From: a virus
Taxonomy: Duplodnaviria > Heunggongvirae > Uroviricota > Caudoviricetes
IMG/VR virus record: IMGVR_UViG_2778261172_000005
Coordinates: 1 to 36,440 of that record
Strand: one strand, 5' to 3'
DNA: 36,440 bases
Shown here in pieces: positions 1,935 through 11,670 of this stretch. The first letter of the stretch is position 1; every line of letters starts with the position of its first letter. The notes under the pieces are model-generated. The model saw only the letters and a list, made by a program, of their open reading frames with translations, did no database searches and was not told the origin of the DNA. A program made the translations under genes and the position numbers.

Positions 1935-3098
1935 TCACTCATCATCTTCTGTTTCGTACTCCACATCAGAAAGCCTGACCTCAAGCTCCAAGGACGTCGT
2001 GAAGCCGCTATTATTCAGAAAATGTGTCACCTTAGTGATTGTCCAGTCCTGCTCGTCTATGACGCGCTTAAAGCCTGACACTTTGACCGACGTTTCCGTG
2101 TAAATATCTGCCCGACCGGTAGCCAGACTGATGGAGAACTCCGCGACGCCCCGTTGCAGTTTGTCCCACTTCGCCTGAGCGGCGCGCATGGCCTGCGCTT
2201 TCGTGGCATATACCGTGGTCAGGGCAAAAACGTTGTCAGCCTCACCGGCCATGTATTCACCTTCGCGCGCTTCCGGTACTTTTGGCGCTTTCTTCTGCGT
2301 GACTGGTTTCGCTTTCGGGTGCTCCAGTGCGCGCAGGTGTTTTTCTTTCTTTTTGCGTTTCAGTTTTACCTTCTGCTTTTGCGGCTTCGGGTCTTTGGTG
2401 TGAAGCCACTTTGCCGTTACGCCGGTATAGGCTCCACGGTCAGCAATCGCAAAATGGTGGCGGTCGCCGTCGCTGCGGGTTATGGTGACCTGCGGGATTT
2501 TTTTACCGCTGGCCGTCACCCCCTGCCCCGCTTTGAGAAACAACAGTTTTCCCATTTTTACCGAGACCTCACCACCGTTGCGTTCTGCAAGACGGGTCAG
2601 GAATTTCGCATCAGACTCCTGCGACTGGTCGATGTGCGGGATTTTAATTCCTGCCAGTGACGGCGCGACACTGGCTTCCAGCCTGTTACGGGAGGCTATC
2701 GCCTCAACAATCGCACCGAGCGTGGTGTCATGCCAGGAGCCTTCACGGCGGGAATTGAGCGTCCCGCGAAAATCTGCACTCCGGGCGCGGATGGTAACCA
2801 CATCCGGTGCGCCCCGGTGTTCAACCTCATCAACGGTGAATTTCCCTTTGCATACCAGGGCAAAACCTTTCCAGCCGATATACACCGTCAGGACAGCGCC
2901 ACGAACCGGCAGCCCGACCTGCCCGTCGGCATCGTTCAGTTCAATATCAAGCTGGTCAGCCTCAAAGCCCCGGTTATCCGTCAGGGTCATGCTCATCAGA
3001 CGGTCGCTGATATTGCCGGTAATATCCCTGCTGTCGAGCATCAGCATGTAATCCGGTGTCAGCGTACTGCCTGCATCAAATGTCAGCGCATCCAGCAT
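1935..3098 (-). CDS. D: tail protein D (P2 gpD-like)
   Basis: 387-aa ORF, same length and position as P2 gpD (last tail-operon gene before ogr); sequence recognised. Confidence 0.9.
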   Translation of the reverse strand: MLDALTFDAGSTLTPDYMLMLDSRDITGNISDRLMSMTLTDNRGFEADQLDIELNDADGQVGLPVRGAVLTVYIGWKGFALVCKGKFTVDEVEHRGAPDVVTIRARSADFRGTLNSRREGSWHDTTLGAIVEAIASRNRLEASVAPSLAGIKIPHIDQSQESDAKFLTRLAERNGGEVSVKMGKLLFLKAGQGVTASGKKIPQVTITRSDGDRHHFAIADRGAYTGVTAKWLHTKDPKPQKQKVKLKRKKKEKHLRALEHPKAKPVTQKKAPKVPEAREGEYMAGEADNVFALTTVYATKAQAMRAAQAKWDKLQRGVAEFSISLATGRADIYTETSVKVSGFKRVIDEQDWTITKVTHFLNNSGFTTSLELEVRLSDVEYETEDDE

Positions 3099-3577
3099 TA
3101 TCCCGCCCCCGTCATACCCGTGAATTTAGTCGCCATACTGCCAGCCTTACCGATGAGCGATTCCGCCTGTTTACCTATATCGCCATAAAGCGCGGCCAGT
3201 GATTCATCAACGCGGGTAAGTGACAGCGTAAAATCAATTTTCCGGGGTGTGCCGTCTGCAAAGAAAATACTCCCTGTTTCACTCACCCTGCTGATGACAT
3301 ACATGCCGTAAATCATGCCGGTGCCATCCAGCAACGGCCACGCCCGGCCTTCCTCTGCCATCAGCCTGAGCGTGGTCATCGTCAGCTTGCCGCCGGTCAG
3401 TTCTGGATAAAGCACACCGGCAAGCGTGATGTTTTCCTCACCCACACCGAGAAACTGAAAGGCATCCCGTTTACCGATACGGGAATTTGACGGCCAGCGA
3501 TAATCTGATTCACGCTGCATGGTCTGGTGTGGCAGCGTCTGGCGCATAAAAACAAACATACCTAACGCGAGCATCAT
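3098..3577 (-). CDS. U: tail protein U (P2 gpU-like)
   Basis: 159-aa ORF immediately upstream of D; start overlaps D; synteny and sequence recognition. Confidence 0.85.
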   Translation of the reverse strand: MMLALGMFVFMRQTLPHQTMQRESDYRWPSNSRIGKRDAFQFLGVGEENITLAGVLYPELTGGKLTMTTLRLMAEEGRAWPLLDGTGMIYGMYVISRVSETGSIFFADGTPRKIDFTLSLTRVDESLAALYGDIGKQAESLIGKAGSMATKFTGMTGAG

Positions 3578-3591
3578 TTTTCGTCACCTCC

Positions 3592-6039
3592 TTAACCGTC
3601 ATGCATCATGCTGGCACGGGCGCGCGCACGTTTATCCCGCTCGTATTTTTCGAGTGCATCCTGTAACTGGCAGTCAAGCTGTGTCCCCGGCGCAGTACCA
3701 CCCGTAAGGCTGATGTGATATTCGTTTTTACTCTGGTCTACATAAGAGCGGCCAGCCGGTGCCGTGACCGGCTGATAAGCCTGATAGCCTGCATAAGAGC
3801 TGGTCGCCGGAATATACCCACCGGTGCCATACGTGGCGGCATGAGTCCTTGCGGCGGTCTGGTCAAGTGTGTCTGACTCTTTGTTGATAACACCGAGTTT
3901 TTCCAGTACCCAGTCAATACCGCTGCGCAGTTTGTTGAACGCATTAAGCGGCAGCATCAGCGCGTCAGCCAGTGCCTGCCCGAACATGACGCCCGTGTCA
4001 CGGCAACGGTTCAGGGTGTCCCGGGTGGCTTTGACCGGGGCAATCAGGTTTTTAAACCACTGCCACGCGGCCTGTAACTTTTCGCCCAGCCAGTCAAACA
4101 CCGGCTTAAGTGGCGTGAACAGTTCCCCCACCGGCGCAAATGCCGCTTTCAGCCCTTCCACCACACCGCCAAAGAATGCGCTGACAGGCTCCCAATATTT
4201 ACGGATAAGCAACGCCCCGGCGACAATGGCGGCCACCACGGCCACAACCGGCCAGCTAATCGCCCCGATGGCCGTCATAACAGCACTGCCAACCGTCGTG
4301 AAGATTGCCCCCATTGCGCCTGCTGCCGCGATGATGGCATTGATGCCAGTGATAACCGGCCAGGCTACGAGGCCAATGGCACCGATGACAGCAGTCAGCG
4401 CCAGTGCACCACCGACAATGAGGCCGATGGTTGACGCCAGTGATTTGTTTTTCTGTATCCAGCCGTCGAGTTTTAACACATACTTTGTGGCCGTCTGCGT
4501 GAGCTTACGCAGTGCGCCTTCCTGCTGGTCAAACAGGTCAGTCCCCACCGCCTCATAAGCGGATTGAAACTCCTTAAAGTCACCGCCGAGGTTGTCCTGC
4601 ATGATATTTACCAGCTCGGCGGTCTTCCCGTCTGAGGCTTTAAACGCAGCGGTCAGTTTGTCCAGCTTTCCAGTTGAGGCGGCAGTCATCAGCACGGCGG
4701 CGGCTGAGCTGGCCTCCTCCCCGAAAATGGTTTTCATGTATTCAGCCTGCTGGGCAGTACCGAGCCGGTTTTTCTCAAAACTGGCCTGCATTTCTTTCAG
4801 AATGGTAAATACTGGCCGGGTATTCCCCTTGCTGTCTGAGGTTTTCACGCCAAGCTCTTTCAGTGCATCCCATGCTTTTCCCGTCGGTGCCTGCAGGCGA
4901 CTTAACACGGCACGGCTTCCCGTCCCCGCCATTGAACCGGTAATTTTTGCATCATGCAGCGCCCCGACCATTGCGGCGGTTTCTTCAATGCTGACACCGG
5001 CATTTTTTGCCACAGGTGCGGCATAGGTCAGCGCATCGCTCATGCCGTCAAAATCGGCGGCGGTTTTGTTCATCGTCATGGAGAGAACATCCCCGATATG
5101 AGCGACCTTATCGTTTGAAAGCTGAAAGGCGGATTTCATCCCCATCAGCAGGGCGGCGTTTTCTTCCATCGTGCGGCGGTTCGCCAGTGCCATATTCAGC
5201 GTGACCGGCGTTGCCGCCTGAATGGCATCAACATCCCCACCGGCTTTCGCAATGATAATCTGTGCACCGGCCGCATCATCCGCCGAGGCGGCAGTATTGT
5301 CACCGAGCTGGCGCGCCTGCTTGCGGAGTGCGACCATTTCGGCGGAGTCTTTTGCCACACCTAGCACGGCCTGCAATTCTGAGTTTTTCTGCGCAAACTC
5401 ATAACCGGGCATCAGTAGCTTAACACCGGCCATCGTTCCCGCCGCCGCAATCCCCACACCGGCAGCGCCCACTGAGGCCATATTTCCGGCCAGTTCCTTT
5501 CCGGCCTGATAACGCTGTTTTACTGCGTTAAGTTTTGCCTGTTGCGCACTGACACGCGCCAGCGCATCACGCTGACGGTTAAGCTGTGCGGTGGTTTCAC
5601 TGATACGGTTTTTCAGTCCCTGCTCATCATGTGCAAGATTGCGGGTATTAATTCCCACAGCGGCCAGTTCCCGCTGCTGGCGTTTAACGGAATCTGTCAG
5701 GCGGTTATATTTCGCCTGTAAGTCCTCCGCCGCACGCTTTGCGGATTCCAGCACTTTCGCCTGAGCACGGGTCGGACGTTCGGTGTTTTTAAACTGTGTG
5801 GCAAGGGCTTCGGCTTCCTGCCGTGCCTTTTCAAGTGCATGACCAGTCACGGCGAGCTGTGCACTGGTCTTGCGGAATCCCTCAATACGGGATGCGTGAC
5901 CGTTCAGCTCGCGCAGTGATTTTTGTGTTTCCCGGATATCCCCCGACAGCGATTTGCTCGCTGTGCGGATGGATTTAAACGGGCGGGATGCCTGGTCAAC
6001 AGCCCTGAGCAATACCTGTAATTTTACATTGTTACTCAT
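3592..6039 (-). CDS. T: tail tape measure protein (P2 gpT-like)
   Basis: 815-aa ORF, Ala/Gly-rich with coiled-coil N-terminal part and hydrophobic central segment; position between E/E' and U. Confidence 0.9.
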   Translation of the reverse strand: MSNNVKLQVLLRAVDQASRPFKSIRTASKSLSGDIRETQKSLRELNGHASRIEGFRKTSAQLAVTGHALEKARQEAEALATQFKNTERPTRAQAKVLESAKRAAEDLQAKYNRLTDSVKRQQRELAAVGINTRNLAHDEQGLKNRISETTAQLNRQRDALARVSAQQAKLNAVKQRYQAGKELAGNMASVGAAGVGIAAAGTMAGVKLLMPGYEFAQKNSELQAVLGVAKDSAEMVALRKQARQLGDNTAASADDAAGAQIIIAKAGGDVDAIQAATPVTLNMALANRRTMEENAALLMGMKSAFQLSNDKVAHIGDVLSMTMNKTAADFDGMSDALTYAAPVAKNAGVSIEETAAMVGALHDAKITGSMAGTGSRAVLSRLQAPTGKAWDALKELGVKTSDSKGNTRPVFTILKEMQASFEKNRLGTAQQAEYMKTIFGEEASSAAAVLMTAASTGKLDKLTAAFKASDGKTAELVNIMQDNLGGDFKEFQSAYEAVGTDLFDQQEGALRKLTQTATKYVLKLDGWIQKNKSLASTIGLIVGGALALTAVIGAIGLVAWPVITGINAIIAAAGAMGAIFTTVGSAVMTAIGAISWPVVAVVAAIVAGALLIRKYWEPVSAFFGGVVEGLKAAFAPVGELFTPLKPVFDWLGEKLQAAWQWFKNLIAPVKATRDTLNRCRDTGVMFGQALADALMLPLNAFNKLRSGIDWVLEKLGVINKESDTLDQTAARTHAATYGTGGYIPATSSYAGYQAYQPVTAPAGRSYVDQSKNEYHISLTGGTAPGTQLDCQLQDALEKYERDKRARARASMMHDG

Positions 6040-6459
6040 TCGTGTTTCCGCTTCGCCGGAGCGCCTTTTCGCGCCATGTGATGAGTTCGGTCAGGCTCAT
6101 GGGATACAGTTCTGATGGCGGCCAGTGAAATATCACTGCCACATCCGCCATCAGGTCATCGACCGACAGATTTTTCGGGAACGTTACTGCACCGAGTTCG
6201 GCGACAAAAAACCAACCACCTTACCTGCCAGCGCCACAAGGTCAGGCAGTTCCAGCGCGGCGACTTCCTGCTCGGTCAGCATCGGTGCCGTCATGCGCGG
6301 CAGTACCTTAATCAGTGCATCGACTTCGGAGTTTGCAACCGCAGCCAGACTGACACCGCGCAGCGTCCCGGCACTGGGTTTCATCAGCGTGACCTGTTCG
6401 ATGACCTGCTCACCACGCTTGACCGGATTGTCCAGGGTAATGACATTTTCTTTGTTCAT
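6032..6459 (-). CDS. E+E': tail assembly chaperone E+E' made by programmed -1 ribosomal frameshift at T TTT TTG (about 6205..6211)
   Basis: gpE frame ends ...GKVVGFLSPNSVQ; slippery heptamer TTTTTTG lies 6 codons before its stop; the -1 frame continues open for 57 codons (VAELGAVTFPKNLSVDDLMADVAVIFHWPPSELYPMSLTELITWREKALRRSGNTNE) and stops at a TAA overlapping the gpT start; total about 142 aa as for P2 E+E'. Confidence 0.8.
6184..6459 (-). CDS. E: tail assembly chaperone E (P2 gpE-like, 91 aa)
   Basis: 91-aa ORF between FII and T; sequence recognised. Confidence 0.85.
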   Translation of the reverse strand: MNKENVITLDNPVKRGEQVIEQVTLMKPSAGTLRGVSLAAVANSEVDALIKVLPRMTAPMLTEQEVAALELPDLVALAGKVVGFLSPNSVQ

Positions 6460-6515
6460 GGTTTTCTCACTTCTGAATCGGGGTTAACCGGTCAGCCAAG
6501 CTGACCGGATGAAAA

Positions 6516-7034
6516 TCACAGGCCGATATTGCGGCGGTGTTGCTCCAGCCGGTCGACGCCGTTCACCTTCTCAATCATGTTGATGGTGTCGATTTCGACC
6601 AGCTCCTTACCGTCCATCGTCAGCCGGAAATAGGTGCAGACCACGGAGATTTTCGACTCGGTGTCTTCTCCCTGTTTGCCCTCGCCGGTGTCGATTTCTT
6701 TCTGACATCCACGCATGACCACCTCGACGGCCACCGTTTCGCCGGTATCGTCGCGCTGGTAAGAGCCTGCAAAACGAATCGGTACGGCATCCACACCGGT
6801 TGCGGCGTAAAGCTCCCAGATAACCGAATCCGGGAAGCCACCGAGCGACCACTCCATTGACAGCGCATCGTCATCAAGGCCGAGGTCTACCGGTGCGCTG
6901 CCGTTCATCCCCGCACCGCGATAGTTTTCGAGCTTACGGGTCAGTTTTGGCAGCGTGACGGACTTTGCAACGCCCTGATAGCTGTAGCCGTTCAGAAAGA
7001 CGTTCATTAACTTGAGTTTGCGCGGCATTGCCAT
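6516..7034 (-). CDS. FII: tail tube protein (P2 gpFII-like)
   Basis: 172-aa ORF downstream of FI; sequence and synteny. Confidence 0.9.
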   Translation of the reverse strand: MAMPRKLKLMNVFLNGYSYQGVAKSVTLPKLTRKLENYRGAGMNGSAPVDLGLDDDALSMEWSLGGFPDSVIWELYAATGVDAVPIRFAGSYQRDDTGETVAVEVVMRGCQKEIDTGEGKQGEDTESKISVVCTYFRLTMDGKELVEIDTINMIEKVNGVDRLEQHRRNIGL

Positions 7035-7046
7035 CGGTCAGGCTCC

Positions 7047-8237
7047 TTAATTGCTGTTAACCGAGGTGACCAGATTTGCCAGGTATTTATCGGTAATACG
7101 CTGGCGCAGGGTCAGGTTTTCAAGAGGAGGCACCGGTGTATAGTCGTAGTCGATATACAGTTTTCCGGCCTTGAGGGTTTCCGCATCGTTGGATTCTTCG
7201 CTGAACCAGCAGGTCGCATCCACGATATAGCCGTTTGTTTTCAGCTCACGGAATTTGGCATTGATGCCGTCAACGATGTCGCGAATCAGCGTTGCGGTGA
7301 TGGGCTTGTCCACCGCCCACATGTGCGCCTCAGCCATCGTGTCGGCCAGCACCTGCGCGGTGCGGGTGTAGTTTTCAAAGAGGAACAGCGGGTCATCAGA
7401 GCAGGTACGGTTACCCCAGAATCGGAAACCGTCGCGGCGAATAATCGTAGTGACGCCTGACTCGTTCAACAGGTCAGCATCGGTGCCGGACTCCTGCAAA
7501 TCCCAGAATACAGAAGCACTGATGCCGGTAACACCGTTTACCCCGACATTGGACAGCGTTTTATGCCAGCCCTGCTCCTGGTCGATTTTAGCGCGCAGAC
7601 CCAGCGCACGGGCGGTGGCATACGCGGTGGCGGTGGAGCTGCTGACCGTATCCCATGCGAGGAAATCCGGCCAGATGACCATCAGCTCACGCTGGCTGAA
7701 ATTCTGGCGGTAGGCTTTCACCTCGGAAATGGTTTTACAGCCCCATGCGCTGATATACCCGAAAGCGCGCAGCTTCTGACAGACTGATGCCAGTGCAACA
7801 GCCACCTCTTTGGTGTCCAGTCCCGGCACGCCGAGAATACGCGGTTTAACACCGGTTACTGACTCCGCCGCCAGCAGGGCTTTCAGTCCGGTGTACTGAC
7901 CGTTTTCGTCGGTGGTGCCGATGATATTGGAAACGGTCTGCGCGAGTTTCGTTTCTTCGTCTTCGCCGGTGCCGTCTTCCACACGCACGACAACGGTGAC
8001 CGGTTTTGACTGGTCGGCGATGGCCTGTAACGATGCCGCCAGCGTGCCTTTTTTACCGGCCTTTGCAATTGCGCTCTGGGCATTGGTAATCAGCACAGGT
8101 TTATTGAGGGGGAAGGTTTCCGCATCCGCATCGCTGGCCGTGCAGACCATGCCGACAATGGCAGTGGATACGGTGGAAATGACGCGGGTGCCGTCGTTAA
8201 TCTCCAGCACCTGCACGCCATGATGATAGTCACTCAT
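7047..8237 (-). CDS. FI: contractile tail sheath protein (P2 gpFI-like)
   Basis: 396-aa ORF; sequence and synteny. Confidence 0.9.
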   Translation of the reverse strand: MSDYHHGVQVLEINDGTRVISTVSTAIVGMVCTASDADAETFPLNKPVLITNAQSAIAKAGKKGTLAASLQAIADQSKPVTVVVRVEDGTGEDEETKLAQTVSNIIGTTDENGQYTGLKALLAAESVTGVKPRILGVPGLDTKEVAVALASVCQKLRAFGYISAWGCKTISEVKAYRQNFSQRELMVIWPDFLAWDTVSSSTATAYATARALGLRAKIDQEQGWHKTLSNVGVNGVTGISASVFWDLQESGTDADLLNESGVTTIIRRDGFRFWGNRTCSDDPLFLFENYTRTAQVLADTMAEAHMWAVDKPITATLIRDIVDGINAKFRELKTNGYIVDATCWFSEESNDAETLKAGKLYIDYDYTPVPPLENLTLRQRITDKYLANLVTSVNSN

Positions 8238-8333
8238 CCGTTTAACTCCGTGGTTAATGGGTGCAACTATTTTCTGTTGTGCAGAGCATGAGACGCTATT
8301 TGACCTGGCTGGTCAGTGGATGAAACAACAGAT

Positions 8334-8360
8334 AAAGAAAAGGCGGGCAATTCGCCCGCC
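8334..8360 (-). terminator. rho-independent terminator between the Z/fun-position cargo and FI
   Basis: Perfect 7-bp inverted repeat GGCGGGC/GCCCGCC with 5-nt loop, followed on the minus strand by TTTTCTTT. Confidence 0.5.
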
Positions 8361-8581
8361 TGTCCTGATTTGTACTCACTCATTTTCCGACTGACAATTT
8401 ACATAACCCAAACGCTATCAATTCTGACAGTCTGCTTTGAGCGAAAAGTGGAAGTTCGCAATTATCCTCACCACTGATAAGTAGCCTTTACTTACAATGT
8501 AATGTGTTAGCTAATGTAATAGGAGCTGAGCAGTGAATTATGAATGGATGCTTTAGTTCATATTTGGGAACAAATTACTGT

Positions 8582-8606
8582 AAAAAAAACCGGCTTACAC
8601 CGGTTT
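8582..8606 (-). terminator. rho-independent terminator immediately downstream of the 305-aa cargo gene
   Basis: Inverted repeat AAACCGG/CCGGTTT with 6-nt loop, followed on the minus strand by an 8-T tract (plus-strand AAAAAAAA). Confidence 0.6.
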
Positions 8607-8661
8607 AAACTCGCTCGCGAGAATCACCCCCCAAATTATATGCAAAATTAAAAATACCAAT

Positions 8662-9579
8662 TCACTCCATTTCTCTTTTGGCTAATTCTTCCCATTCGTC
8701 GATTGAGTTATTATAAGGAAATACCTCTTTAACTATGAAAGGAATGTAGCTTTCTTCAGCATTGTGATGTATTTCATTACTGATATTACTTGTGATTCCG
8801 AATTTTACGTCAGGATCGTTTTCAGAGAAATGTATATGAAAAGGTTGTTGACCTAAAGCCTGTCTAATTTTATTTGCTTGTTCTGATGGAAGGACTTTAA
8901 GTAGCTGTTTGAATGTTTTTTTATTAAAGTCTAGAGAAATGGCCATATCAATATCTCCGGGTATCATAGATATGCACGTGTATGACCGTTCGCTCAATCG
9001 ACTAATAAATTTAGTATTTATAGCAGGGGCACTAAAAGAACCATCTTTAACCAAACCCATTTTTCGAATATGAATTCCAAAATCAGGTGCATAACTCAAG
9101 ACATCCGGATTGGCTTTAATATCTGGATTTAATATCCTAAATAATTTTTCCCAGTAATTACCAATGTCTTTCAAAGAAAATCTGAGTATTGGGTGGAGTT
9201 CCCGTATACTATATAGAACAAATTCATTCCCATTGCACAATGCATACATTTCTGCCCTTATTTCTGGATGTATAGCATAACTATAGGCTTGCTCAACGTG
9301 CATGCTTTTGGTTATTTTTTCATTAGGGGCCTTTGCATCAAGAATCCAATATGGTCGGTCGTTAGAAAGAAAAACATAATCCGGTACTATTGAAATCTTT
9401 CTTGGCTGTGAACCTATTGAGACAAATGGATGTGTAAGCGTTTTGCTCCTGATTACACGACTATCTCCCGATGCTTTATAACCAAGAGCTTTAATAATTG
9501 GTAAAATCAACTCTTCTCTGACTGAATCCTCTTTAAATTCATCTGAGCTTAGTAAGTTAAAATCAAAATCATCAAACAT
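8662..9579 (-). CDS. cargo protein with N-terminal PD-(D/E)xK restriction-endonuclease-like domain (HsdR-N/Mrr-like), 305 aa; candidate defence nuclease
   Basis: Motifs E-x...PDYVF...WILDAK...EQAYSYA in the order typical of the PD-(D/E)xK fold; AT-rich gene at the FI-G position where P2 carries Z/fun; own terminator; ATG preceded by a G-run SD. Confidence 0.6.
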   Translation of the reverse strand: MFDDFDFNLLSSDEFKEDSVREELILPIIKALGYKASGDSRVIRSKTLTHPFVSIGSQPRKISIVPDYVFLSNDRPYWILDAKAPNEKITKSMHVEQAYSYAIHPEIRAEMYALCNGNEFVLYSIRELHPILRFSLKDIGNYWEKLFRILNPDIKANPDVLSYAPDFGIHIRKMGLVKDGSFSAPAINTKFISRLSERSYTCISMIPGDIDMAISLDFNKKTFKQLLKVLPSEQANKIRQALGQQPFHIHFSENDPDVKFGITSNISNEIHHNAEESYIPFIVKEVFPYNNSIDEWEELAKREME

Positions 9580-9900
9580 ATCCCCCCCACATATATTTAT
9601 TTGACAAAAGATGTATAATTCAAATTATTCAGAGCCATTGTAAATCACTATAGAATAAAAAGATAATTTCAAGTGGAGGTGTTATCTGATTTTTTGATTT
9701 ATAGCACAAAAAACGACCTCTACAGGCTGTTTATTACGATAGTTAAAGCTGATCACATTTAGGCAGTCAGTCCAAGATGCTCTCTTCAACATGGCCTAGG
9801 TTTTTTTACCGTCGAAGAAGATAATTGTGTCCATAGCATGATGCTTTCAAGTGGTATGATCTCTTTCTCAGTGATTCATGCAGTATGAGCCTAGCAACTT

Positions 9901-9934
9901 CTGCTTCTGGCACAGGGCGGACTTTCTGACTGAG
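9901..9934. repeat. 34-bp direct repeat, copy 1 (CTGCTTCTGGCACAGGGCGGACT...), flanking the DUF2971-like gene
   Basis: About 80 percent identical to 11060..11093, with the first 23 nt matching at 21 positions. Confidence 0.6.
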
Positions 9935-10090
9935 TTGAAGGTCTGCTGCGACCGAATATCGGACATTAATAACCTCAGAGACATAGCGCCCTTGAAATGC
10001 ACCCCTCCAGAAATGAAAATCTGTTATGATACTAGCATAAACTATTTATTTTTCAGTAAAGTTTAGAAAACAAATTTTTATGAATAGAAA

Positions 10091-10113
10091 AAAGGAGAAC
10101 AATGCCCTCCTTC
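10091..10113 (-). terminator. possible terminator downstream of the DUF2971-like gene
   Basis: Inverted repeat AAGGAG/CTCCTT with 9-nt loop, followed by a T-rich run on the minus strand; imperfect. Confidence 0.35.
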
Positions 10114-10130
10114 TTTATTTTTAAATTCTA

Positions 10131-10859
10131 CTACAATTTAATTTTTAGTCTTTTAGGAGCATCGTATAGAGTAGATATTTTTATTTCGGCTTTACAACCC
10201 TTATCCTCAATTGCCAATGTGTATGCCTGCCTTAAGTTTTTTTCCATTCTTGGGTCAAATAGCACGGTGTCTAATAGTTCAACTGGATTAATTTCAAACT
10301 GGAAAATATCATTATCGACACTATTATCATCACCAGAATATATTAAACGAACTTCGCTTTCGTGTTCAAACTCCACGCGTTTGTATAAAAGCGATTCAGC
10401 AATGCCTGAGCCATTAGTGTTGAATAAATCAATTGACAAGAGTTTTTCCGAAAGAGTATCCTCCGGAAGATAAGAAACCTTGCCTATAAAACACCTTAAA
10501 TTATGGTAAGTCGGCTCTGCTTTTTGAAGTGCGGCTAATAGTTTTCTTGGTGTGGTTGAAACTCTTACACCATTTTTATCATGGGAATATATCCGCCACA
10601 TTGCATCGGTTTCACTATGAAATGTCCAGCATTGCCCATAAACAGAATCTCTTGCGGCAACTGTTCCTGTTTGACCATCAGAAGTTTCAATTACACAATT
10701 TAATAAAGCGTTCTCAAAAGGGTCATCCCATTTTCTTGGTTTTACTAAAGTTAATTTTTTTTCTTCAAGCAATTGAAGAAAACGGTGTATTGGCATAATT
10801 CTATAAATAGGTATATCCAATGATTCATCTGTTAAATTAATATAGTTATTATAGCTCAT
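10131..10859 (-). CDS. DUF2971-like cargo protein, 242 aa; candidate single-gene defence or abortive-infection factor
   Basis: N-terminal IYRIMPIHRFLQLLEEKKL...PRKWDDPFE matches my recollection of the DUF2971 signature (YR.P..RF...L...L...P..F.DP.E); strongly AT-rich; flanked by direct repeats. Confidence 0.5.
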   Translation of the reverse strand: MSYNNYINLTDESLDIPIYRIMPIHRFLQLLEEKKLTLVKPRKWDDPFENALLNCVIETSDGQTGTVAARDSVYGQCWTFHSETDAMWRIYSHDKNGVRVSTTPRKLLAALQKAEPTYHNLRCFIGKVSYLPEDTLSEKLLSIDLFNTNGSGIAESLLYKRVEFEHESEVRLIYSGDDNSVDNDIFQFEINPVELLDTVLFDPRMEKNLRQAYTLAIEDKGCKAEIKISTLYDAPKRLKIKL

Positions 10860-11059
10860 ACATATTGACCTTTTGGTAGTTAGTGTAATTAAAAAGGCGG
10901 TTGGGATATTTTAGCAAAAACCTAAGAACTGATTCAACCCTGCGGACTTACAGATTTCAGTTCATATATCCAATGTTATAAATTCTCATTTATGAACTAT
11001 TCTCCTAAAATTTTTTGATTTCAATCTTTAGAGAGCGCAAAAGACCTATGTTCGAATGA

Positions 11060-11093
11060 CTGCTTTTGGCACAGAGCGGACTGTCAGATTAGG
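11060..11093. repeat. 34-bp direct repeat, copy 2; its 5' part also forms a 10-bp inverted repeat (TGGCACAGAG...CTCTGTGCCA, 11067..11108)
   Basis: Matches 9901..9934; the inverted-repeat partner is present only at this copy. Confidence 0.6.
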
Positions 11094-11142
11094 CTTTACT
11101 CTGTGCCATAGATATGTAAGCTCACACCAGAGTTCATACAAC

Positions 11143-11670
11143 TTATTGCGGCATTTCCGGCCATTCAGGATTTGCAGGATCCACACGACTGACCAGAACG
11201 CTGTAGCGTTCCCAAGCCTCCAGCCGTGTGCGCTCCTCCTCTGTTGCCATGTTCAGTCTGACCGCGCGCTCCAGCGGCAAAATCACGGATTCAGCATCTG
11301 CAAGAAGTCTGGCTTTCCGAATTTCTGCCTGCTGCTGTAATTCCTCTGCCGTATAAATGCGTTTAATCACTTTGCCGTCCTTAAACATCCAGCCCCCTGA
11401 AATATCCGCCCGTCGGTTAGCAGTAATATCCGCCACTTCAACCACACTTAATCCATCCGGTCTGATAGCTGTCACATCCTTTTCCACATAGCGGATGATA
11501 TTATCTTTGTCGTACGCTATTTTTATCGTGTCATCAGCAAAATACTTTTGTTCTTCGTACCAGTTCTTACCATCTTCTGTAAAAAACCAGACAACATCAA
11601 AGCCCTTTGTCAATTGATATTGTTCAACTGTTTTTGGATTACCCGCCGTTATATTTATCAAATGCTGCAT
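11143..11670 (-). CDS. G: tail fibre assembly protein (P2 gpG-like)
   Basis: 175-aa ORF downstream of H; sequence and synteny. Confidence 0.85.

What the first reader, a model, noticed from the sequence alone, without database searches (positions are those of the whole stretch)
8238..9660. PD-(D/E)xK nuclease-like cargo gene at the Z/fun position, insulated by its own terminators
Seen in sequence: a 305-aa minus-strand gene (8662..9579) in a strongly AT-rich block between FI and G, followed by a hairpin plus 8-T terminator (8582..8606) and a second terminator (8334..8360) before FI. Its N-terminal 130 aa carry PDYVF...LDAK...EQAYSYA, matching the catalytic core order of HsdR-N/Mrr-like PD-(D/E)xK nucleases; the C-terminal 170 aa match nothing I recognise. 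Established knowledge: the FI-G position in P2 holds the exclusion gene Z/fun and is a recombination hotspot for defence cargo. Inference: a single-protein nuclease defence or abortive-infection factor expressed from the lysogen independently of the late operon.
Basis: partly seen in the sequence, partly recalled or inferred. Interest (0 to 1): 0.7.

Follow-up and report, generated by a model that had tools for sequence, protein, structure and literature searches.

The report
Mobile single-gene nuclease defence candidate
A P2-like prophage of E. coli carries, at a site where such phages swap anti-phage genes, a self-contained mobile gene for a restriction-type DNA-cutting domain fused to an SSB-like OB-fold domain; it is a plausible but untested new single-gene phage-defence family.

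The parts
8662..9579 (-). Focal gene, 305 aa: nuclease + OB-fold protein (RefSeq WP_089618320.1, 'type I restriction enzyme HsdR N-terminal domain-containing protein')
   Evidence: ORF. Annotation. Family of 987 clusters. dN/dS 0.10-0.12 against 88-90%-identical homologues.
9130..9579 (-). N-terminal PD-(D/E)xK nuclease domain (residues 1-150) with D67, D81-A-K83 and Q97-xxx-Y101
8710..9093 (-). C-terminal OB-fold domain (about residues 163-290), starting with the conserved (K)PD[YF]G motif and carrying the NAEESYIPF motif
8579..8606 (-). The module's own intrinsic-terminator-like hairpin (AAACCGGTGTAAGCCGGTTT + T-run)
   Evidence: Conserved with the gene in Enterobacter and Klebsiella contexts.
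9580..9926 (-). Conserved 5' non-coding leader of the module. It includes an extended -10-like element TGcTATAAA (9698-9706) and a G-rich Shine-Dalgarno (9582-9588).
   Evidence: 70-74% identical to three other contexts, against 62-63% identity at synonymous sites. The promoter element is read from the sequence and is a consensus match only. No small ORF is conserved here.
9904..9926 (-). Internal copy of the Z-locus repeat core (GTCCGCCCTGTGCCAGAAG), at the 5' edge of the focal module between the two cargo genes
   Evidence: 3 mismatches to the 23-mer, 0.00 expected by chance; 0 mismatches to the 19-nt core. The same site lies ~340-370 nt upstream of homologues in L002, L003 and L008.
11063..11088 (-). 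G-side arm of the hotspot inverted repeat; P2 backbone homology resumes here
   Evidence: Annotated as an inverted repeat in AJ512685.
8423..8448 (+). FI-side arm of the hotspot inverted repeat; P2 backbone homology ends here
   Evidence: (26 nt, 85% complementary).
8341..8361 (-). Backbone terminator-like hairpin upstream of FI.
   Evidence: Conserved in P2 and P2-EC67.
10131..10859 (-). Neighbouring, independent cargo gene: 242-aa DUF2971 / PADLOC PDC-S31 (ART-like)
   Evidence: E 1e-94. 83% nucleotide homologue elsewhere in E. coli SE11. Never adjacent to focal-gene homologues in other contexts.

Best explanation
The gene encodes a stand-alone, horizontally mobile, two-domain enzyme. An HsdR/Type IIG-type PD-(D/E)xK endonuclease head (the effector) is fused to an SSB-like OB-fold domain (the sensor or target-recognition module). 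It is one of two independent cassettes stacked in the Z/fun hotspot of a P2-like prophage of E. coli JNEC-KY180.

Most likely it is a single-gene anti-phage system. The prophage would express it from the module's own promoter. The OB-fold domain would recognise an infection-specific cue, either an unusual nucleic-acid form such as exposed ssDNA or replication intermediates, or a phage protein. That recognition would license the nuclease head to cut DNA.

There is no methyltransferase, so self/non-self discrimination cannot rest on host methylation. It must come from what the OB domain recognises or from activation control.

Shown here: the fold and catalytic motifs, the domain architecture, purifying selection, single-gene mobility, and residence in known defence hotspots.

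Inferred: nuclease activity, the sensor role of the OB domain, anti-phage function, and whether the outcome is direct restriction or abortive infection.
For: Nuclease head:
- D67, D/E81, K83, Q97 and Y101 are conserved in 58/58 homologues.
- The same head, at 47% identity over residues 1-167, is fused to an N6/N4 methyltransferase in a viral contig, giving a Type IIG-like enzyme.

OB domain:
- Domain-only model with pLDDT 90.9.

Modularity of the OB domain:
- A profile search finds 405 cluster representatives.
- These include stand-alone ~127-aa proteins and fusions to a multi-TM segment, Sel1 repeats and several unannotated domains.
- In distant pairs its dN is 0.57-0.66, against 0.24-0.29 for the nuclease domain.

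The gene is functional: dN/dS is 0.07-0.14 in each domain.

The gene is autonomous:
- No neighbour family recurs at more than 7 of 64 loci.
- It occurs as a single-gene attC-flanked cassette in Vibrio.
- A ~1.4-kb DNA module with leader and terminator is conserved across four contexts.

Defence context:
- P2 Z/fun hotspot, beside a PDC-S31 gene.
- P2 gpA-gpQ (old/tin) hotspot in Serratia, beside SIR2+HerA. Rousset et al. 2022 describe this locus as a defence hotspot.
- P4-like satellite and lambdoid prophage moron positions.
- Islands with integrase, resolvase or toxin-antitoxin genes.
- In diverse phyla, about 10 of 149 nearest neighbours match defence families strongly: REase_I, GajB, DRT, NucC, DrmC, PDC-M09/M16/S32.
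Against: - No phenotype or biochemistry is available.
- PADLOC v2 has no model for the family. The only hit is a weak match to the Type IIG nuclease head. The OB-domain fusions also have no PADLOC hits.
- The window protein falls just under Pfam's HSDR_N cut-off (22.8 vs 25.1 bits).
- Outside Enterobacterales and Vibrio, many neighbours are housekeeping genes, and the neighbour scan had no matched control.
- The OB domain is acidic on average (net charge -6.7, pI ~5.2) with few conserved basic residues. This is atypical for an ssDNA binder and leaves the ligand open.
- How host DNA is spared is unexplained.
- The promoter is only a consensus match. The gene is co-oriented with the late operon, so read-through from G cannot be excluded.
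Confidence: 0.55

Rival explanations
1. Type IV-like direct restriction enzyme. The C-terminal barrel reads a chemical or structural mark present only on phage DNA, such as modified bases or ssDNA, and the nuclease cuts that DNA without killing the cell. This is a specific sub-case of the best explanation.
For: No methyltransferase is present in the protein or its neighbourhoods. The layout of a nuclease head plus a beta-barrel reader at ~300 aa recalls modification-dependent enzymes (own knowledge: PvuRts1I/AbaSI class). END nucleases show the same logic with another reader domain (PMC12191111). A stand-alone OB homologue sits next to GmrSD.
Confidence: 0.2
2. A phage-benefiting nuclease that is not immunity, for example a recombination, repair or anti-defence factor, or host-DNA degradation during P2 lytic growth, carried as an accessory gene.
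For: RecB-family nuclease plus OB-fold is also the logic of DNA repair and recombination enzymes; Dna2, RecJ and ExoVII-type hits appear. The gene is co-oriented with the late tail operons.
Against: The gene is absent from almost all P2-like phages. It is found equally in non-phage contexts: an integron cassette, a TA-flanked islet and IS-adjacent DNA. It sits in hotspots whose tested cargo is largely defensive. It has its own terminator and leader rather than being embedded in an operon.
Confidence: 0.12
3. A selfish, homing-type nuclease that promotes its own cassette's insertion by cutting at the repeat sites that bound the module.
For: A conserved ~19-30-nt site marks the 5' edge of the module in four contexts. 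An inverted copy flanks it in the E. coli and Serratia P2-like phages.
Against: The same inverted repeats flank unrelated cargo (Z/fun itself, SIR2, HNH, RES and others) in P2-like phages that lack this nuclease. The site is absent from the Pantoea, Pectobacterium, Klebsiella, Vibrio, Shewanella and Delftia copies. Type IIG-type heads have no intrinsic sequence specificity (own knowledge).
Confidence: 0.05
4. A decayed, non-functional remnant of a Type I or Type IIG restriction enzyme (orphan nuclease head).
For: The RefSeq name and the only sequence-level hits point to R-M nuclease heads.
Against: The ~295-aa two-domain architecture is conserved in at least 144 species-representative genomes across many phyla. 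dN/dS is ~0.1 in both domains. Catalytic residues are invariant. The C-terminal domain is a well-folded, separately conserved module.
Confidence: 0.03

Closest known systems
Nuclease heads of Type I HsdR and Type IIG/IIL R-M enzymes (EcoR124I HsdR, BpuSI, DrdV, MmeI class)
   Same: Same PD-(D/E)xK fold, and the best structural matches. Same D...(D/E)xK...QxxxY motif set (motif naming from own knowledge of RecB-family/HsdR nucleases). A viral Type IIG-like enzyme shares the head at 47% identity.
   Different: No SF2 translocase. No methyltransferase or target-recognition domain. No hsdM/hsdS neighbours. An OB-fold domain takes the place of the specificity-giving part.
Shedu (SduA) and similar single-protein sensor + PD-(D/E)xK nuclease defences
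   Same: A one-gene system combining a PD-(D/E)xK effector with a variable non-catalytic domain, carried on mobile elements and integron cassettes. Shedu is frequent in integrons according to 10.1101/2024.07.02.601686.
   Different: No DUF4263/Shedu model hit in PADLOC. The domain order is reversed, with the nuclease N-terminal. The nuclease subfamily and the sensor fold both differ.
Modification-dependent (Type IV) single-chain enzymes and END nucleases
   Same: A methyltransferase-less nuclease fused to a separate reader domain, with modular swapping of reader and cleavage domains (PMC12191111).
   Different: Modification dependence is untested.
P2 Z/fun, the canonical occupant of this locus
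   Same: Same position between G and FI, same strand, similar size (299 aa in P2), and bounded by the same inverted repeats.
   Different: No detectable sequence similarity. tblastn of the focal protein against 50,697 phage records, including P2, found nothing.

Membership tests
Pfam HSDR_N (PF04313) / HsdR-type PD-(D/E)xK nuclease domain | Sequence match above Pfam's gathering score | tested here: inconclusive
   The window protein scores 22.8 bits against a cut-off of 25.1, E 9e-5. Many family members carry a precomputed PF04313 hit. Relatives score 26.2-33.1 bits.
Pfam HSDR_N (PF04313) / HsdR-type PD-(D/E)xK nuclease domain | PD-(D/E)xK fold superposable on HsdR/Type IIG nuclease heads | tested here: met
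Pfam HSDR_N (PF04313) / HsdR-type PD-(D/E)xK nuclease domain | Catalytic D ... (D/E)xK plus QxxxY motif conserved | tested here: met
   D67 58/58; D81 56 D + 2 E; K83 58/58; Q97 58/58; Y101 58/58. The motifs fall on strand-strand-helix elements as expected.
Type I restriction enzyme (HsdR subunit) | SF2 ATP-dependent translocase domains in the same polypeptide | tested here: not met
   The protein is only 305 aa, with no helicase or ResIII hit.
Type I restriction enzyme (HsdR subunit) | Cognate hsdM/hsdS genes nearby | tested here: not met
   None in the prophage locus or in 12 other contexts.
Type IIG/IIL restriction-modification fusion | Methyltransferase and target-recognition domains fused to the nuclease head | tested here: not met
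   No MTase domain. The PADLOC hit covers only positions 23-140 of a 1011-position model. A relative in L023 does have the MTase.
Type IV (modification-dependent) restriction enzyme | Known modified-base reader domain (SRA, EVE, YTH, ASCH, etc.) or McrB-type GTPase | tested here: not met
   The C-terminal domain matches only OB-folds and has no Pfam hit.
Type IV (modification-dependent) restriction enzyme | Cleavage depends on DNA modification | not testable with these tools
   Needs biochemistry or phage assays.
OB-fold (nucleic-acid-binding type) | Five-stranded barrel, b1-b2-b3-helix-b4-b5 topology | tested here: met
OB-fold (nucleic-acid-binding type) | Binds ssDNA or another nucleic acid | tested here: inconclusive
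   Fold neighbours are nucleic-acid binders. However, the domain is acidic with few conserved basic residues. Binding itself is not testable here.
Known or candidate defence systems in PADLOC-DB v2.0.0 | Significant full-length match to a system model | tested here: not met
   Only a partial, weak REase_MTase_IIG hit. Newer DefenseFinder/PADLOC releases could not be run.
P2 Z/fun hotspot cargo | Lies between G and FI, inside the conserved inverted repeats, and is variable among P2-like phages | tested here: met
Shedu | DUF4263 nuclease domain | tested here: not met
   No Shedu/DUF4263 hit in PADLOC or Pfam.

The most novel reading that the evidence does not exclude
The '(K)PDYG' OB-fold domain is a previously unrecognised, widely shuffled infection-sensor module. 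It pairs with different effectors: this nuclease head, a multi-TM segment, and other unannotated domains. It also occurs as a free-standing protein with a partner gene. Under this reading the nuclease-OB family is a new single-gene anti-phage system. It would move between the two P2 hotspots, P4-like satellites and other elements as a cassette bounded by a conserved ~30-nt recombination site.
Probability: 0.3. Interest if true: 0.7.

Novelty: new variant of a known kind. Interest (0 to 1): 0.55.

Why it matters
If the gene is defensive, it adds a compact (~0.9 kb) system built from a well-understood restriction nuclease head and an uncharacterised OB-fold sensor. That combination makes it easy to study how a methyltransferase-less nuclease tells phage from self.

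The OB domain's appearance with other effectors would mark it as a reusable sensor, useful for annotating further orphan genes.

The repeat sites at cassette edges bear on an open question raised in recent work on P2/P4 hotspots, namely how cargo is swapped. Those authors state that the recombination process 'still need[s] to be elucidated' (10.64898/2026.02.27.708500). The same module also appears in both a P2 hotspot and a P4-like element.

Tried and rejected
- Sequence searches against PDB with the family profile and with the N-terminal domain alone found nothing usable.
- NCBIfam gave nothing and PHROGs gave only a weak 'endonuclease' hit.
- tblastn against 50,697 phage records found no match.
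- IMG/VR returned only 3 loci.
- The afdb50 fold library was unavailable.
- A split nuclease next to the stand-alone OB protein: the 161-aa upstream ORF is unrelated.
- Named systems checked against their published descriptions and not matching this architecture:
  - Bandua, Aernus, Toga, Reve, Crouga and Hailong from P4 hotspots.
  - Epona, Divona, Damona, Sirona, Nemetona, Toutatis and Belisama from V. cholerae integron cassettes.
  - END nucleases.
- Literature searches for HsdR_N-only or OB-fold defence genes found nothing naming this family.
- Rfam scan of the cargo block gave only a spurious eukaryotic snoRNA hit below threshold.
- No conserved small ORF in the module leader.
- Pfam and PADLOC on OB-domain fusion partners gave no hits except Sel1 and HSDR_N.
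Full report
**1. What is in the sequence**

The window matches the chromosome of E. coli JNEC-KY180 (NZ_AP045177.1) at 100% identity. The locus is a P2-like prophage with the gene order H, G, [cargo], FI, FII, E, T, U, D on the minus strand. The ORF 8662..9579 (-) encodes 305 aa.

It lies in a block with GC 0.29-0.40, spanning about 8300-11150. The flanking tail genes have GC 0.51-0.59.

The number of terminator-like sites is not above shuffled expectation (3 vs 2.4 +/- 1.5), so their credibility rests on conservation (sections 2 and 7).

The same AT-rich block holds a second minus-strand gene, 10131..10859 (242 aa).

**2. Limits of the cargo**

Alignment with phage P2 and with the P2-EC67 Z-region entry shows where backbone homology stops. 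It runs from FI to about 8447 and resumes at about 11063.

These break points coincide with a 26-nt inverted repeat, 8423-8448 / 11063-11088, which is 85% complementary. GenBank entry AJ512685 annotates these as the left and right inverted repeats of the Z region.

The variable cargo is therefore about 8449-11062. The 8341-8361 hairpin belongs to the conserved backbone upstream of FI, and only the 8587-8606 hairpin belongs to the cargo.

In 5,426 complete E. coli genomes the flanks occur in 1,021. This cargo occurs in one. Other genomes carry RES, HNH, DUF4145, SIR2 and other genes at the same place. In the phage collection only the flanks match.

**3. The N-terminal domain**

Sequence-level support is weak but consistent:
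- Pfam HSDR_N: E 9e-5, 22.8 bits, just under the 25.1 cut-off.
- PADLOC Type IIG REase-MTase model: E 9e-6, N-terminal part only.
- PHROG 'endonuclease': E 0.008.

- Cas4 and RecB-like exonucleases

In the alignment, D67 is invariant, position 81 is D in 56 and E in 2, and K83, Q97 and Y101 are invariant. From my own knowledge, D...(D/E)xK followed by QxxxY is the motif set of RecB-family and HsdR nucleases.

So the nuclease assignment is sound, and the domain is the HsdR/Type IIG kind rather than Mrr.

A viral contig (L023) encodes an 821-aa protein with this head (47% identity over residues 1-167) fused to an N6/N4 DNA methyltransferase. The head is therefore a module shared with Type IIG-like enzymes.

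**4. The C-terminal domain**

A model of residues 156-305 alone is confident (pLDDT 90.9, pTM 0.81). Its strand and helix order is b1-b2-b3-helices-b4-b5.

The domain has no Pfam family.

A profile of the domain finds 405 cluster representatives among 1.84 billion. It occurs in four settings:
- at the C-terminus of ~295-aa HSDR_N proteins;
- alone as ~127-aa proteins that begin M..KPDYG;
- at the N-terminus of proteins with a multi-TM tail (P0230) or with unannotated domains, three of which share one such domain;
- internally (residues 98-224), upstream of Sel1 repeats (P0228).

None of these is in PADLOC.

The domain is acidic on average (net charge -6.7, pI 5.2). The conserved basic residues are concentrated in the nuclease domain. 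The fold says 'nucleic-acid-binding OB', but the ligand could equally be a protein.

**5. The family and its selection**

The large protein database holds 987 clusters at E <= 1e-3. The best 120 hits are predominantly full-length proteins of ~280-307 aa at 50-58% identity, alongside a few fragments and longer variants. They come from Gamma-, Beta- and Deltaproteobacteria, Bacteroidota and others.

A scan of one genome per species found 144 relatives. They span Proteobacteria, Bacteroidota, Cyanobacteria, Planctomycetota, Chloroflexota, Acidobacteriota, Firmicutes, Myxococcota and candidate phyla.

Against 88-90%-identical homologues, dN/dS is 0.10-0.12 overall and 0.07-0.14 in each domain. In distant pairs the C-terminal domain has about twice the dN of the nuclease domain.

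This is a functional, horizontally spread, two-domain protein and not a decayed R-M fragment.

**6. Autonomy and context**

The gene has no conserved partner. Among 557 ORFs within 5 kb at 64 loci, the commonest neighbour family occurs at 7 loci.

Contexts seen for close and moderately distant homologues:
- E. coli: P2 Z/fun hotspot (this window).
- Serratia: a P2-like prophage, between gpA and the portal gene (the old/tin hotspot of Rousset et al. 2022), beside SIR2 + HerA.
- Enterobacter: the end of a P4-like element carrying Ogr/delta, AlpA, Ash, DUF5375 and alpha primase genes.
- Enterobacter: next to an IS element and CdiA/CdiI genes.
- Klebsiella: islands with integrase, resolvase and DUF4062, or with primase and serine recombinases.
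- Pantoea and Delftia: lambdoid prophages, at moron positions.
- Pectobacterium: an islet next to ParDE.
- Shewanella: an IS110-containing island.
- Vibrio parahaemolyticus: a single-gene cassette flanked by attC-type repeats inside an integron array.

DUF2971 is never the neighbour elsewhere, so the two cargo genes in this window are independent.

Across diverse phyla the nearest neighbours are mixed. About ten of 149 match defence families strongly (Type I REase, GajB, DRT, NucC, DrmC, a Cas4-type nuclease, PDC-M09A, PDC-M16A, PDC-S32). Integrases and HTH regulators are also present. Many neighbours are housekeeping genes, and I had no matched control.

**7. The mobile module and its edges**

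The window sequence from about 9926 down to about 8500 aligns at the DNA level with the Enterobacter and Klebsiella copies. The aligned stretch includes ~340 nt of upstream non-coding DNA and the terminator hairpin.

The leader is 70-74% identical, against 62-63% identity at synonymous sites. It contains an extended -10-like TGcTATAAA at 9698-9706, retained in the two Enterobacter copies and altered in the Klebsiella copy (TGcTATGAA), and no conserved small ORF. The promoter call is a consensus match only.

The 5' edge of the module is a third copy of the Z-locus repeat core, GTCCGCCCTGTGCCAGAAG, at 9904-9922 (-). The same core lies 340-370 nt upstream of the gene in several other loci:
- L003: 0 mismatches.
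- L002: 2 mismatches.
- The Serratia prophage: 2 mismatches, plus a weaker inverted copy 265 nt downstream of the stop.

In the Serratia case the rest of the flanking DNA cannot be aligned with the window.

In 1.2 Mb of unrelated loci, a relaxed pattern gave five 3-mismatch hits and none at <= 2 mismatches. The site is absent from the Pantoea, Pectobacterium, Klebsiella, Vibrio, Shewanella and Delftia copies. It is therefore a feature of P2-type hotspots and their derivatives, not of the gene itself.

I read it as a cassette boundary or recombination site. That reading is inference.

**8. Mechanism**

From my own knowledge, in Type IIG enzymes the nuclease head has no specificity of its own. 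It is positioned by the methyltransferase/TRD part of the protein. Here that part is replaced by an OB-fold domain that is also found with non-nuclease partners.

The most economical reading is a sensor-effector fusion. The OB domain recognises an infection-specific nucleic-acid form or phage protein, and this licenses DNA cleavage by the head. With no methyltransferase, host protection must come from the specificity of that recognition or from activation control.

Whether the outcome is direct restriction or abortive infection cannot be decided here.

Rival readings are listed with their evidence: a Type IV-like reader, a phage-benefiting nuclease, a homing-type selfish nuclease, and a decayed remnant. 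The last is contradicted by the selection and conservation data.

**9. Comparison with what is known, and novelty**

RefSeq already names the protein by its N-terminal domain. PADLOC v2 has no system model for it.

The systems named in the P2/P4 hotspot and integron-cassette papers that I could read have different architectures. Three literature searches found nothing on the family. Newer DefenseFinder or PADLOC models and subscription literature could not be checked, so prior description cannot be excluded.

I classify it as a new variant of a known kind: a single-protein PD-(D/E)xK defence nuclease with a novel sensor domain. Interest is moderate. This is a well-supported candidate with a testable mechanism and an interesting cassette structure, but it has no phenotype yet.

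Noticed in passing
window 10131-10859 (-), with a weak terminator-like hairpin at about 10088-10113 (-): A second cargo gene in the same hotspot: a 242-aa DUF2971 protein matching PADLOC candidate PDC-S31 (E 1e-94). DUF2971 is predicted to be a DarT-like ADP-ribosyltransferase (PMC12522546). A DUF2971 protein, 'Aristaios', is a validated lactococcal antiphage system (PMC11381338). An 83%-identical DNA copy, including its downstream region, lies elsewhere in E. coli SE11.
   Followed up: partly
window 9904-9926 (-), 11063-11088, 8423-8448; L003 7659-7677; L002 7659-7677; L008 7628-7646 and 9167-9185: A ~19-30-nt repeat (GTCCGCyyTGwGCsArAAGCrGAA) bounds the hotspot, separates the two stacked cassettes, and accompanies the nuclease module in Enterobacter and in the other P2 hotspot in Serratia. 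There the rest of the flanks is unalignable. It may be a cassette recombination site.
   Followed up: partly
L002 (Enterobacter, GCA_033022715.1) 2167-8918: The same ~1.4-kb module (88% nucleotide identity in the gene) sits at the end of a P4-like element, after the alpha primase gene. A 2026 preprint reports that P2 and P4 almost never exchange defence genes. A PUA-like + metallophosphatase gene lies at the other end of that element.
   Followed up: no
L019 3079-3910 and L021 1766-2624 (metagenome contigs): A stand-alone 127-aa version of the OB domain travels with an identical downstream 132-aa gene of unknown function, while the upstream context differs (GmrSD + 161-aa ORF versus HTH + 268-aa ORF). 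This suggests a mobile two-gene unit.
   Followed up: partly
Proteins P0230, P0228, P0212/P0241/P0266, P0157/P0268, P0233: The OB domain is fused to a multi-TM tail, to Sel1 repeats, and to at least two recurrent unannotated C-terminal domains. None has Pfam (except Sel1) or PADLOC hits.
   Followed up: partly
L023 881-3346 (IMG/VR UViG_3300035672_000073): A viral contig encodes an 821-aa Type IIG-like enzyme. Its nuclease head is 47% identical to the focal protein's residues 1-167 and is fused to an N6/N4 methyltransferase. L024 has the same head with yet another C-terminal domain, next to an Mrr_cat protein.
   Followed up: partly
L008-L011 (Serratia) 4153-7225: A SIR2_2 + HerA-like pair, a known defence pairing, lies immediately beside the nuclease-OB homologue in the gpA-gpQ hotspot of a P2-like prophage.
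   Followed up: no
window 9650-9950: A GC-richer patch (0.38-0.40) lies inside the AT-rich block. It is the conserved non-coding leader of the focal module and is slightly better conserved than synonymous sites. Its role (promoter, regulatory RNA or recombination flank) is unknown.
   Followed up: partly
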